Assembly: GCA_964016885.1 (NCBI GenBank)
Contig: OZ024753.1
Span: forward strand, 7,254,001-7,318,000
Direction: 5' to 3'
DNA: 64,000 bases
Source of the DNA: Eledone cirrhosa
Lineage: Eukaryota
Below the pieces are notes generated by a model. It had not been told where the DNA came from and did no database searches. It worked only from the letters and a program-made list of their open reading frames with translations. Position numbers and translations under genes: made by a program. Shown here in pieces: positions 21,015-64,000 of the stretch (position 1 is the stretch's first letter; every line of letters begins with the position of its first letter).

Positions 21015-21077
21015 CATTTCATCTGATGAGAGCGTACCAAAGTTTTTTGGTACCCTTGAAATATATATAATAAAATA
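21015..21077 (+). ncRNA. Type I hammerhead ribozyme (family H1)
   Basis: CATTTCAT-CTGATGA-GAGCGTACCAA/TTGGTACCCTT-GAAA-TATATA-TA-ATAAAATA. Two mismatches in stem I. Confidence 0.65.
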
Positions 21078-23653: not shown

Positions 23654-23839
23654 TTGTTGGTTCACCACTGGATAGAATTGGTCATTCCGTATGGTCAATC
23701 TTGATGTAATATTATGGAGAGTACTCAACGTAGTGCAGTTCACTCGTCTTCGTTTGTGTAGTTGGTGGTGCTAATACGGAGTTTATTATAAATAAAATAA
23801 CAGGAGGCTGGACTGGTGTAAATCCTTGAAAAGTTTATT

Positions 23840-23897
23840 ATACTATTATGATTTCAATGACCGGGTTCCATATGAATCCGGTGATATCATCAGGTAT
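23840..23897 (-). ncRNA. Type I hammerhead-like motif
   Basis: ATAC-CTGATGA-TATCACCGGATTC/GAACCCGGTCATT-GAAA-TCATAA-TA-GTAT. Confidence 0.5.
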
Positions 23898-24633
23898 TCG
23901 AAATATAACAAAGGAACATATAAAATCTATTATATATATATATATATATATACATATATATAATTTTTCGGCTCTGTTTAACTACATTGAGCTATATCCT
24001 TTTACTGTCATTTCTATAATACGAAGAGGGTGTTTAACTCCAACACGCTCCAGTATTTTAACCTTTATATATATATATATATATATTTATGTATATATAT
24101 ATAATCATCGTTTAACATCCATTTTCCACGCTAACATGGGTAGGATATGACGAAGGACCGTGACATGTGGAGGAGAGATGCTGTCCTAAATAGGACCCGT
24201 CCCACCCTTGCAAACAGAGAAAAGCGGACGTAAAATGATGATGATTATGATGATGATACAGACACACATCTGCACATGTGTGTGTGTAATTTATTCTACT
24301 GCAACAAGAACAACATAAACATAACACATGTTTTACTAAGTGATCAAAGAAATATGCCTAGCAGATATTCGGACTCGTCGCCATATTGCAATGGCAAACC
24401 TTGTTTATTCAACGTAAAAGGGTAACTAGAAAACAGGATGAAAGGATACTCCGAGATAAGGATTGAGTGATTATACTCTCTGTGTGAAATCCAAGGAAAT
24501 TAAGCTGGTTGGATTGAAAATGTCTGAGAAATAAGGGAGAGCTAACTAGAAAAATTACCATGTTTCTTCCAAAGATTTACCTTTGCGTTTTACCTCTAAT
24601 AACAATCTAGATATGCTAAGAATACAGGTAAGT

Positions 24634-24825
24634 AATTGTTTCTACTTATGGCACAAGGCCAGCAATTATCCCAGTGCATTACTGGTACTTTATTCTATCG
24701 ACGCCGTAAGGATGAAAGGCAAAGTTAACCTCTGCAGGATTTGAATTCAGACCGTAAAGGGTCGTAACTCTATGCTGCAAAGCATGGACACCGACTCTCT
24801 ACCGATACTCCCAATCCACCACCCT
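24634..24825 (-). mobile_element. tRNA-derived SINE family 1
   Basis: Same consensus as 1027-1425. Confidence 0.85.
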
Positions 24826-44109: not shown

Positions 44110-44170
44110 TATTTTACCTGATGAAAGCGTACCAAAGTTTTGGTGCCCTTGAAATATATATAATAGAATA
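44110..44170 (+). ncRNA. Type I hammerhead ribozyme (family H1)
   Basis: TATTTTAC-CTGATGA-AAGCGTACCAA/TTGGTGCCCTT-GAAA-TATATA-TA-ATAGAATA. Confidence 0.65.
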
Positions 44171-56007: not shown

Positions 56008-56327
56008 TATACACATATATATAAATAGTTGTTTGCATTGCTGTCTTAACGACAGAGAGATGGAAGTCTTTCTGCAACGGTACTGCTGTTTGCCTTGCTA
56101 CCCCATTCGATATCTTCTATATTTAGTCTTTCGTCCTTAATGTTGTTGCTGTTATTGCATTGTTTTTCTTGGAGTATCTTTGTTTTGGTTTGCTTCGGAC
56201 ATTTCTCAAATCGATCCCTAGTCTTTCTATAGTTATAGGGAGTGCCGTGATGAATCGATAATCAATAACAAGCCCTCCACCCCACAGCATATCGTACAAC
56301 ACCTTGCAAGCACATATTATATATATT

Positions 56328-56515
56328 GCGGTGGATTGGCAGTATCGGTGGAGGGTCGGACGCCATGCTTTGCAGCAAAGAGTTACGGCCCTTTATGGTC
56401 TGAGTTCAAATACCGACGAGGTTAACTTTGCCTTTTATCCTTACGGGGTCGATAAAATAAAGTACCAGTAATGCACTGGGATAATTGCTGGTCTTGCGCC
56501 AAAAGTAGAAATAAT
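56328..56515 (+). mobile_element. SINE family 1
   Basis: Consensus match. Confidence 0.85.
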
Positions 56516-56531
56516 TATATAGGGTAAACGC

Positions 56532-56582
<51 letters not shown>

Positions 56583-56856
56583 CACACACATATATAGAGA
56601 GAAAGAGAGAGAGTGAGCGACAGAAACAGACATATATATAAAGATAGATACTCACAAACATATATGTGTATATATTTAGATGTTTATAGATATACATATA
56701 AGAATATATGTAAATATATATATATGCAAAAGTTTTATTTAAAATTGTTGGGTTACAACGAGTAAATATTTTATAACTGATATAAAGCACTCAACAAGTT
56801 TTAGAGTAGATATACGATATTAAATAAATGGAAACTATATTTATAAAACCATATTG

Positions 56857-56921
56857 ATTTCATTATACATATTTCAGGGATACCATATTAAAAATATGGC
56901 ATGCCTTCTTCAGATAAAATA
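56857..56921 (-). ncRNA. Type I hammerhead ribozyme (family H1, inverted twin of 57007-57072)
   Basis: Reverse-complement copy with an intact core. Confidence 0.75.
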
Positions 56922-57006
56922 GAATATATAAACCAACTTTTTTAAATGGAAGTTGATCAATATTTTATGGTACGTCAAATTTATTTATAAAACTGCTTAT
57001 ATATTG

Positions 57007-57072
57007 TATTTTATCTGAAGAAGGCATGCCATATTTTTAATATGGTATCCCTGAAATATGTATAATGAAATA
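57007..57072 (+). ncRNA. Type I minimal hammerhead ribozyme (family H1)
   Basis: TATTTTAT-CTGAAGA-AGGCATGCCATATT/AATATGGTATCCCT-GAAA-TATGTA-TA-ATGAAATA. Confidence 0.8.
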
Positions 57073-57109
57073 AATATGGTTTTATAAATATAGTTTCCAT
57101 TTGTTTAAT

Positions 57110-57184
<75 letters not shown>

Positions 57185-57245: not shown

Positions 57246-57385
57246 TTATTTCTGAAGATGGCATATATAGGTGAAGATGTATATATATCTCCTCTGATAA
57301 TTTGTAATATTTTTTTTACATAGATCTTTAACATAATATACATTCCAACACACATACACATATCCCAGAAACGTTCGTAAAATGA
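57246..57385 (+). ncRNA. Type I hammerhead-like motif with long stem II
   Basis: TTATTT-CTGAAGA-TGGCATAT...ATATCCCA-GAAA-CGTTCG-TA-AAATGA. Confidence 0.55.
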
Positions 57386-57440: not shown

Positions 57441-57507
<67 letters not shown>

Positions 57508-57900
57508 AACCAGTAAGACCCCGACGGCTGAGCTAAAGCCGTTTCGACGGCTAATTCTCCGGCAATTAGCTGTCGAAACGGCTTGAGCTCAGCCGTCGGG
57601 GTCTTACTGGTTCCTATTACCCACTCTACTACCCTAAGTATTGAGTACTTTGGTGCGTTATGGTCCACCTGGTTCCTTACCACATTTCCTTCGTTATATA
57701 TATATATATGTATGTATAACAAAGAGGGTGTGGTAAAATACCAGGTGGACCATAACGCACCAGAGTACTCGATACTTGGGGTAGTAGAGGACCCTGACGG
57801 CTGAGCTCCGGCCGTTTGGACAGCTAGATCCTCCTTACTCTCACTGTGGCAAAATTCAAGAAATTTTCTCAACATGGGATTGCAAAAAAGAATTTGATGT

Positions 57901-59280: not shown

Positions 59281-59689
59281 ACAACAGCCACCCAACTGAG
59301 CTGGGATTGAATTTGCTCTTGTTGCTGATGTGGTTGTTATTGTTGTATGTGTGTACTTTTATATCCATATAGTTTTAGTTAAATACACAGTTTATGCTGA
59401 ACTTTCATCCCAGATGGATTGCCAGAAGACGGTTATTTTGTTTTGAGTGTATGTTTCGTCTATTTCGTTTATTTAAAAAATATTTTAAGATCTATCAGAC
59501 ATTAACTTTGAAGGTAAGAATATATAATCTTTCTTATTTGTCTAAATATATATATAGAGAGAGAAATTGCCTCGAAACCACTAGGTGTATCTGAGGAACT
59601 TGCGAATCCAGAGTCAGGTTCGATCCACAAACAGATCGCACTTCGAGCTGTTCGCCGGAGAAACAATTGTAATACGTAATAAATATATT

Positions 59690-62280: not shown

Positions 62281-62316
<36 letters not shown>

Positions 62317-62404
62317 GTAGGAGGTGAGTTTTATTGTAGTACAATAAAGCAATGCAGATATCGGATAAGAAGCACTCTACAGTTTGTAGGACTGGAGTAT
62401 ACAT

Positions 62405-62741
62405 AATATATAAGATCAAAAGATGGTTAAATGAGTTCCATGTATTTTATTATGCGCATTTCAAAAACAAATATCATCATGCAATAACATTTGTGTTTTC
62501 ATCAGATAAAATAGGAGGACATGATATGAAGGTTAAAAAACACTTGTGGATAGTGCAGTTTTAAATCAACATATGTTGATTTAAAACTGCACTATCCACA
62601 AGTGGTTTTTAACCTTCATATCATGTCCTCCGATTTTATCTCTATGAAAACACAAATGTTATTGCATGATGATATTTGTTTTTGAAATGCGCATAATAAA
62701 ATACATGGAACTCATTTAACAATCTTTTGATCTTATATATA
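62405..62741. repeat. Near-perfect ~335-bp spacerless palindrome containing a hammerhead in each arm
   Basis: Centre CATATG at 62570-62575. The right-arm core is mutated to CTCTATGA. Confidence 0.9.
62443..62513 (-). ncRNA. Type I minimal hammerhead ribozyme (family H1)
   Basis: TATTTTAT-CTGATGA-stem II-GAAA-TGCGCA-TA-ATAAAATA. Perfect 8-bp stem I, palindromic stem III ATGCGCAT and an AUA site. Confidence 0.8.
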
Positions 62742-63841: not shown

Positions 63842-64000
63842 GGAGGCACATGGCTTAGTGGTTAGAGCATTGGGCTTGCAATCGAAAGGTTGTGAGTTCA
63901 ATTCTCAGACCAGGTGATGTGTTGTTTCCTTGAACAAGACACTTTATTTCACATTGCTCCAGTTTACTCAGGTGTAGAAATGAGATGATAGGGACTGGGG
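63842..64000 (+). mobile_element. CORE-type SINE (family 2-related)
   Basis: TGGCTTAGTGGTTAGAGC (A box), GAGTTCAATTC (B box) and CCTTGAACAAGACACTTTATTTCAC. Confidence 0.75.

What the first reader, a model, noticed from the sequence alone, without database searches (positions are those of the whole stretch)
56816..57112. Family H1 hammerheads: palindromic mini-stem III and a conserved pyrimidine mismatch at pair 4 of stem II
Seen: stem III is an 8-nt self-complementary or nearly self-complementary sequence that varies between copies (ATATATAT at 21015 and 44110, ATATGTAT at 57007, ATGCGCAT at 62443, ACGTTCGT at 57246, ATCATAAT at 23840). Stem II sequences differ widely, yet all six have a C.C mismatch at pair 4 (C.U at 62443). 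Established: minimal hammerheads with palindromic stem III self-cleave as dimers. Inference: structure is conserved over sequence, and the mismatch may mark a tertiary or protein contact. Here two copies point away from each other in a ~115-bp-arm inverted repeat.
Basis: partly seen in the sequence, partly recalled or inferred. Interest (0 to 1): 0.75.

Follow-up and report, generated by a model that had tools for sequence, protein, structure and literature searches.

The report
Penelope hammerheads keep an unpaired cytosine
This is a cut-down, back-to-back insertion of a known kind of jumping gene whose hammerhead-type RNA motif, predicted to self-cut, occurs tens of thousands of times in this genome and nearly always leaves one cytosine unpaired, likely a contact point that nobody has tested.

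Summary
Both hammerheads are the 3' ends of a Hydra-clade Penelope-like retroelement (PLE), inserted head-to-head into (TA)n with the tail on one arm only, a published PLE layout. Of 74,043 family copies genome-wide, stem II pair 4 is C.C in 45,081, C.U in 23,277 and C.purine in 3,098; most listed C.purine copies belong to two amplified C.A subfamilies. So the rule is an unpaired 5' C, not a pyrimidine mismatch. It persists across families whose proteins are about 50% identical while neighbouring pairs covary. It is absent from the hammerheads beside marine relatives and from 25 published Hydra-clade hammerheads. Stem III is self-complementary in 96 of 100 copies, as known for dimer-type PLE hammerheads. 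The inverted pair cannot be the dimer, since the copies lie on opposite strands. Arm ends fall just before one of two conserved hairpins. Cleavage and the C's role are untested, and a key paper (Lunse 2017) could not be read. This scan noted both the mismatch and the twin hairpins before, on other DNA of this genome.

The parts
56725..56931 (-). Long (tailed) arm: PLE 3' end from 18 nt upstream of the hammerhead core to the distal end site
   Evidence: 92% identical over 230 nt to the tailed arm of L031
56930..57113 (+). Short arm: PLE 3' end from 85 nt upstream of the core to the proximal end site
   Evidence: 97% identical over 211 nt (TA run included) to the 3' end of ORF-bearing copy L220
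56930..56931 (.). Head-to-head junction with a 2-nt overlap between the arms
   Evidence: alignments
57007..57072 (+). Type I hammerhead: stem I 57007-57014/57065-57072, core 57015-57021, stem II 57022-57052, GAA 57053-57055, stem III 57056-57063, predicted cut 57064/57065
57025..57049 (+). Pair 4 of stem II: unpaired C 57025 opposite C 57049
56856..56921 (-). Second type I hammerhead: core 56913-56907, stem II 56906-56876 (C 56903 opposite C 56879), stem III 56872-56865, predicted cut 56864/56863
56725..56814 (-). PLE tail, present on this arm only; in tandem copies it runs on into the 5' UTR and ORF
56786..56807 (-). Hairpin module 1 (RCUC ... GAGY-RCU); the short-arm end corresponds to a site a few bases 5' of it
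56771..56782 (-). Strand b, complementary to a strand after module 2 in tandem copies
57114..57178 (.). (TA)n target microsatellite, right flank (left flank about 56700-56724)
21015..21077 (+). Related hammerhead, C.C at pair 4
44110..44170 (+). Related hammerhead, C.C at pair 4
62443..62513 (-). Family B hammerhead, C.U at pair 4; tailed arm of a second inverted pair whose plus copy (about 62640) has a damaged core
57246..57385 (+). Long-loop family hammerhead, C.C at pair 4
23838..23899 (-). Hammerhead of another family, U.U at pair 1 and C.C at pair 4, poor stem III palindrome
59585..59677 (+).

Best explanation
The locus is a doubly 5'-truncated, head-to-head insertion of a Hydra-clade Penelope-like retroelement, and the C at stem II pair 4 is kept unpaired in one PLE lineage, likely as a docking point (for the element's own protein or for helix I) that would help hold the predicted dimer-type ribozyme off until the RNA-protein particle forms. 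Shown: element identity, arm and tail layout, conservation of the C, covariation round it, palindromic stem III, arm ends beside twin hairpins, copies spanning the cut site intact. Inferred: two reverse-transcription starts, one 5' of each hairpin, primed from the two strands of a cut in (TA)n, give the two arms, which join by microhomology; the template must be uncut or re-ligated at the hammerhead; two hammerheads of a tandem transcript (or two RNAs) pair through stem III to cut; the open C is read by a partner. The inverted pair itself is inferred to be a dead by-product: a transcript would carry one sense and one antisense copy and fold into a long hairpin.
For: Same-subfamily copy L220 carries RT and endonuclease upstream of a sense hammerhead; intact 799-aa ORF in family B shows DKT, CxCX5C, CxxC/CxH as listed for Hydra. 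Pair 4 of 74,043: C.C 45,081, C.U 23,277, C.purine 3,098, 5' base not C 2,595 (sum 74,051, 8 double counts). Of the first 100 C.purine rows about 69 are one C.A subfamily, 8 a second, 4 point C-G and 2 deletions (counted by eye), so no amplified Watson-Crick subfamily appears. Over 24 stem II types seen twice or more, pair 4 was C.C 16, C.U 3, U.C 2, C-G 1 (another family), G-C 1, A.C 1 (the last two loci picked as exceptions), while pairs 2, 3, 5, 6 were paired in 24 of 24 with 3 to 5 pair types each. Mismatch families share 47-57% protein identity between the deepest groups and form one branch (SH-aLRT 84). The 5' C stays while its partner changes three ways, which favours recognition of the C. 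A PLE hammerhead needs its protein to cut and uncut RNA is the insertion template in vitro (PMC11167929). Of 30 divergent pairs 22 had one short and one long end, 3 like ends, 5 unscorable. No excess of truncation at the cut site.
Against: No cleavage, binding or expression data (searches gave no usable RNA). No conserved partner base in stem I across the families. One family (1,654 pattern matches) has U.C, so the 5' C is not absolute; its protein was not found. Both arms of L218 share a repaired G-C pair, so such a template inserted at least once. Relatives without the mismatch move well: none among the hammerheads beside 77 metagenome loci except two weak chance-level hits, none in 25 published Hydra families. 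The endonuclease-only tree leaves the long-loop family unplaced. Families share descent, so copies are not independent trials.
Confidence: 0.5

Rival explanations
1. The mismatch is a plain thermodynamic brake or hinge: any non-pair three base pairs from the core would loosen stem II and slow cutting, or ease reverse transcription through it.
For: Partner may be C, U or A; U.C occurs. Predicted pairing of pairs 1-3 is 0.01-0.03 in L034 and 0.61-0.84 in the window copy, against 0.43-1.0 in the natural G-C copy L218 (the copies differ at other places too). Inserted copies span the cut site intact.
Against: The 5' base is C in 96.5% of 74,043 copies across deep families; a pure brake could use other mismatches or positions. 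Long stems without a mismatch exist in relatives.
Confidence: 0.27
2. The mismatch is a neutral relic inherited from one ancestor and never repaired.
For: One origin fits the RT+EN tree; most Hydra elements lack it; a repaired copy inserted (L218).
Against: Loops and stem I are unalignable between families, pairs 2, 3, 5, 6 swapped with compensation, and the partner changed to U and to A but in no amplified subfamily to G.
Confidence: 0.1
3. The C is conserved for a DNA- or cDNA-level reason (promoter or endonuclease site), not for the RNA fold.
For: pLTRs hold promoters in other PLEs (PMC6765202 passage); only the 5' base is nearly fixed.
Against: G.U pairs on the sense strand at pairs 1, 2, 5, 7 show the RNA strand folds; bases on either side of the C vary; the partner avoids G over loop lengths from a few to about 90 nt.
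Confidence: 0.08
4. The two divergent hammerheads are a working unit (dimer pair, retrozyme or MITE-like element).
For: Divergent pairs are very common and arms are near-identical.
Against: The copies are on opposite strands; arm lengths and spacers vary from 0 to several kb and often hold ORF pieces; one arm has a tail; the layout is the published PLE inverted 5'-truncated form (PMC8557442, PMC4209133).
Confidence: 0.04

Closest known systems
Hydra-clade EN+ Penelope-like elements and their hammerheads (Craig et al. 2021, PMC8557442; passages, section 11, supplement part 2 of 59 and two supplement searches seen), including Hydra-1_Obim
   Same: RT plus C-terminal GIY-YIG-type endonuclease with DKT, CxCX5C, CxxC/CxH; (TA)n target; 3' hammerhead without a fixed G10.1-C11.1; inverted 5'-truncated copy; one-sided tail. 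The hammerhead of my locus L157 reads the same as the Penelope-1_NV row of their File S2.
   Different: None of the 25 Hydra families in File S2 shows a pair-4 mismatch; most list a 9-10 nt stem III; here stem III is 8 nt, stem II 11 bp or longer, the tail about 85-135 nt and elements 3.7-4.4 kb.
PLE minimal hammerheads (Cervera and de la Pena 2014, PMC4209133; main text parts 1-2 of 4, supplement parts 1-2 of 3 seen)
   Same: Type I, long helix II, small palindromic helix III, dimer model, pairs on opposite strands 100-700 bp apart, high sequence variety.
   Different: Their consensus has an extra base after A9 and G10.1-C11.1; here pair 1 is A-U, G.U, C.A and others. None of the 56 rows of their Fig. 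S3 shows a pyrimidine or C mismatch at pair 4 as read from the text dump.
Poseidon PAc of Anolis (Frangieh et al. 2024, PMC11167929; parts 1-2 of 4 seen)
   Same: Two internal RT start sites defining the tail; hammerhead upstream of them; AT-rich target; hammerhead cuts only with protein.
   Different: Different clade; ORF starts inside the hammerhead; start sites in one AC-rich stem-loop, not before two repeated hairpins; no mismatch described in what I read.
Dimer-cleaving small hammerhead variants (Lunse, Weinberg, Breaker 2017, PMC5785218)
   Same: As cited in PMC6765202 (passage): short palindromic stem III, dimer cleavage, PLE association.
   Different: Not held; whether it shows this mismatch is unknown to me.

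Membership tests
Type I hammerhead ribozyme | Core CUGANGA, GAAA, UH with three helices, open at stem I | tested here: met
Type I hammerhead ribozyme | Match to an Rfam hammerhead model at gathering score | tested here: not met
   only a tRNA-like hit in the window
Type I hammerhead ribozyme | Site-specific self-cleavage | not testable with these tools
   no raw RNA reads; no truncation footprint at the site
PLE minimal/dimer hammerheads (PMC4209133) | Small palindromic helix III, unstable as monomer | tested here: met
   96 of first 100 rows self-complementary (by eye); monomer hairpin +2.4 to +4.8, duplex -2.2 to -10.5 kcal/mol for six of seven 8-mers
PLE minimal/dimer hammerheads (PMC4209133) | Extra base after A9 and G10.1-C11.1 pair | tested here: not met
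   pair 1 is A-U 12, G.U 4, C.A 5, U-A, A.A, G-C 1 each over 24 types
PLE minimal/dimer hammerheads (PMC4209133) | Located in the pLTR/3' end of a PLE, sense to the ORF | tested here: met
Hydra-clade PLE (PMC8557442) | DKT motif; CxCX5C linker; CxxC and CxH either side of E and N; no CCHH | tested here: met
   read from ORFs against section 11 and alignment rows, by eye; DKT seen in family B, not covered in the truncated L220
Hydra-clade PLE (PMC8557442) | N-terminal RWK motif | tested here: inconclusive
   family B reads RW followed by T or I
Hydra-clade PLE (PMC8557442) | Insertion into (TA)n, 3' hammerhead | tested here: met
Hydra-clade PLE (PMC8557442) | Placement in a tree with published Hydra proteins | not tested
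   published proteins were not available as tool sequences; indirect link through L157 = Penelope-1_NV hammerhead
Hydra-clade PLE (PMC8557442) | Generally under 3 kb | tested here: not met
   unit 3.7 kb in L213, 3.9 kb in L042; a tendency, not a strict trait
Non-LTR retrozyme | Non-coding tandem monomers each with a hammerhead | tested here: not met
   no tandem monomer here; subfamily has ORF-bearing copies
MITE | Equal terminal inverted repeats round a fixed-size element | tested here: not met
   unequal arms, tail on one side, spacers from 0 to several kb

The most novel reading that the evidence does not exclude
Hydra-lineage PLE RNA is a protein-gated machine: the unpaired C marks a site where the element's RT-endonuclease dimer clamps and switches the hammerhead, the palindromic stem III brings two element ends together, and the twin hairpins set two RT starts on the two strands of one cut, which explains the one-tailed head-to-head insertions. 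Natural C.C, C.U, C.A, U.C and rare G-C variants give a ready series to test what PLE hammerheads are for.
Probability: 0.2. Interest if true: 0.75.

Novelty: new variant of a known kind. Interest (0 to 1): 0.43.

Why it matters
What PLE hammerheads do is open: they cut poorly alone, one needs its protein, and insertion in vitro does not need cutting (PMC4209133, PMC11167929). A base held unpaired next to the core through deep divergence is the kind of feature that could reveal the missing partner or brake, and more than 70,000 copies supply natural variants. The element class, the dimer idea and the inverted layout are known, so the gain is a testable handle, not a new system.

Tried and rejected
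Rfam gathering scan: no hammerhead hit. DNA search of the genome with the 121-nt arm: empty because common words are skipped, uninformative. Pfam on two ORFs: nothing useful; GIY-YIG in 2 of 36 aligned homologues. PDB sequence search: nothing relevant. RNA: no RNA holder listed; seven guessed-RNA runs laid, none covered the hammerhead; run X22 may be the source sample and is not counted. I first labelled the ORFs Nematis from memory; dropped after reading the Hydra definition. In the tree I attached ORFs L239 and L241 to the U.C family; they proved 85-90% identical to other families, so those two labels are wrong and the U.C family's protein is unknown; the tree is the quick one (careful search unfinished) and was not rebuilt. 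A pseudoknot reading of the tail was replaced by two nested hairpins plus a joining helix. An alternative stem II register with a bulged first base fails in the GGAC and TGGC types. No conserved G partner for the C was found in stem I or just downstream (by eye). Footprint of cut RNA: about 5-6 of 30 inspected loci (of 315 matches) were true truncations at the cut site against 4 of 10 (of 125) at a control site 8 nt downstream, so no excess; small samples. Literature searches that found no description of the mismatch or of twin hairpins; Lunse 2017 not held, and unread supplement parts may bear on this.

Full report
Observation. The window is AT-rich, microsatellite-dense animal DNA from a 3.0-Gb genome; an octopod is likely (a named homologue is from Argonauta; earlier notes say the same), which I did not establish. 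Two type I hammerhead motifs lie back to back: plus strand 57007-57072 and minus strand 56921-56856. A scan that does not demand the mismatch gave 57 hits in 674 kb and 0 in reversed DNA. Rfam misses them.

What it is. A pattern fixed on the core and the 3' flank matches 74,043 places, often as divergent pairs 0.1-5 kb apart. Longer pairs enclose RT and endonuclease coding sequence, with the hammerhead sense and about 1-1.7 kb downstream of the ORF. L220 has the same stem II as the finding and is 97% identical to the plus arm. The proteins show DKT, a CxCX5C linker, and CxxC and CxH round the conserved E and N, the traits given for the Hydra clade of Penelope-like elements (PMC8557442 section 11; alignment rows; compared by eye). 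The Hydra lead came from earlier notes; I had first said Nematis from memory. The insertion runs 56725-57113 inside (TA)n: a plus arm starting 85 nt before the core and ending at the near end site, and a minus arm starting 18 nt before the core with a tail of about 90 nt, joined over 2 shared letters. An inverted 5'-truncated copy and a one-sided tail are published PLE features (PMC8557442 passages; PMC3846280 passages), and hammerhead pairs on opposite strands 100-700 bp apart were reported in PMC4209133.

The mismatch, genome-wide. Of 74,043 copies, pair 4 is C.C in 45,081, C.U in 23,277, C.purine in 3,098; the 5' base is not C in 2,595. Among the first 100 C.purine rows about 69 are one C.A subfamily and 8 another; 4 are point C-G and 2 arise by deletion (counted by eye). 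Among the first 100 non-C rows most are scattered U.C changes and roughly a tenth are G-C. So no amplified subfamily with a Watson-Crick pair 4 was seen, and the partner may be C, U or A: the conserved thing is an open 5' C. Families with unrelated flanks share it: GGTC (7,836 matches) and a long-loop family (8,493) have C.C in the copies inspected; one family has U.C (1,654). Across 24 stem II types seen at least twice, pairs 2, 3, 5 and 6 were paired in all 24 with several pair types, pair 4 in 2; that sample includes loci I chose by family. Pair 1 is loose (C.A, A.A, U.U occur), as in other Hydra hammerheads.

Its limits. Other PLE hammerhead families of this genome (6-nt and 9-nt stem III types, TTCCAAAC with 59 matches) have pair 4 paired. 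Of 77 metagenome loci with proteins 30-39% identical, 42 gave 54 hammerhead-like hits against 9 in the reversed control; all hits with a full CUGANGA core and a stem II of four pairs or more had pair 4 paired, two weak-core hits showed C.C or U.U, and three-pair stems cannot be scored. None of 25 Hydra families in File S2 of PMC8557442 or of 56 rows in Fig. S3 of PMC4209133 shows it, though their descriptors may have excluded mismatches. In a quick RT+EN tree the C-mismatch families form one branch (SH-aLRT 84) with identities down to 47-50% (two rows were mislabelled by me and belong to paired families); an endonuclease-only tree needs one or two origins. Both arms of L218 share a repaired G-C, so repair does not block a single insertion.

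Stem III. It was unconstrained and is self-complementary, G.U allowed, in 96 of the first 100 rows. A scanner that required 3 of 4 pairs found 134 of 142 complete. The central pair changes with compensation across families, which matters only in a dimer. As a monomer the hairpin costs +2.4 to +4.8 kcal/mol; the duplex gains 2.2 to 10.5, except for the 23893 copy. This is the known dimer design (PMC4209133; PMC6765202 passage). The two copies here cannot be partners, being on opposite strands; partners would be the two hammerheads of a tandem unit, 3.7 kb apart in L213, or two RNAs.

How the pair arises. In tandem copies hammerhead, near end, tail and ORF start are contiguous. This stretch holds two copies of a bulged hairpin (RCUC ... 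GAGY-RCU), each followed by a strand that pairs with the other. In 29 of 44 metagenome loci with enough upstream DNA there are two GAGYRCT in the 170 nt before the ATG (11 have one, 4 none; 0.065 expected); the following strands pair better than shuffles at p at most 0.05 in 22 of 29. Insertion ends fall a few bases 5' of hairpin 1 or hairpin 2 in four families (one end type only in the 9-nt family's five copies); of 30 distinct divergent pairs 22 have one of each, 3 like ends, 5 unscorable. With the two internal RT starts and two-strand cutting shown for PAc (PMC11167929), the inferred route is two starts on the two sides of one cut. Every arm crosses the hammerhead cut site intact, and truncations are not enriched there, so the template is uncut or re-ligated. 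I saw the hairpins before finding that earlier notes of this scan had them; those notes are not independent support.

Mechanism of the C. Best reading (0.5): an exposed C read by the element's protein or helix I, gating a ribozyme that must stay off during copying. Shown: conservation and covariation. Inferred: contact, gating, cleavage. A pure brake (0.27) fits the free partner and the weak predicted pairing of pairs 1-3 but not the fixed C. Neutral descent (0.1) and a DNA-level role (0.08) fit poorly.

Novelty and score. The element class, dimer hammerhead and inverted layout are known. I found no printed description of the open C or the twin hairpins, but Lunse 2017 was not held and most supplement parts were unread. 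The scan noted the mismatch before on other DNA of this genome. New variant of a known kind; interest 0.43. Also seen: part 1 of 5 of 10.64898/2026.07.22.740005 and passages of PMC6962438, neither bearing on the mismatch.

Noticed in passing
window 56771-56807 (-); L213, L042, L201, L087; metagenome loci L124-L200: Twin bulged hairpins plus a joining helix between hammerhead and ATG, conserved across Hydra-type elements; insertion ends fall just 5' of one or the other. Also visible in the published Hydra-2_Amil tail.
   Followed up: yes
G000:C1 e.g. 26896728-26896771 (L216), 13231947-13231997 (L217): In the long-loop family many head-to-head junctions lie within 0-60 nt of the hammerhead core, several at the same palindromic point in stem I, a possible copying stall or microhomology hotspot.
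   Followed up: partly
G000:C1:13736341 (L297) and many others: A subfamily of roughly 2,000 copies with a short 8-pair stem II and C.A at pair 4, the most compact natural variant for assays.
   Followed up: partly
window 59585-59677: Hammerhead family with U.C at pair 4 and often C.A or A.A at pair 1; no ORF found beside the copies inspected, may be non-autonomous; this copy is followed by LINE-like sequence.
   Followed up: partly
window 62315-62735: Second head-to-head pair (family B) with a perfect palindromic junction; the plus copy has a damaged core.
   Followed up: partly
window 56969-56977: A splice-donor-like GGTAYGTCA motif 20-45 nt upstream of the core is kept in several subfamilies but not in family B.
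   Followed up: no
window 57505-57620 and 57620-57800: GC-rich near-perfect hairpin element with further inverted parts, recurring elsewhere in the genome; not identified.
   Followed up: no
window 39964-about 42100: Tandem array of a 23-bp unit, 81 or more copies.
   Followed up: no
window 56326-56518, 1238-1430, 24633-24820, 63851-63908: Dispersed repeat of about 190 bp that looks like a tRNA-derived SINE (recalled), and a weak tRNA-like Rfam hit.
   Followed up: no
L032:1395-3791: Uninterrupted 799-aa ORF of family B with an asparagine-rich insert before the zinc-finger linker; copies 97-100% identical, so the family is young.
   Followed up: partly
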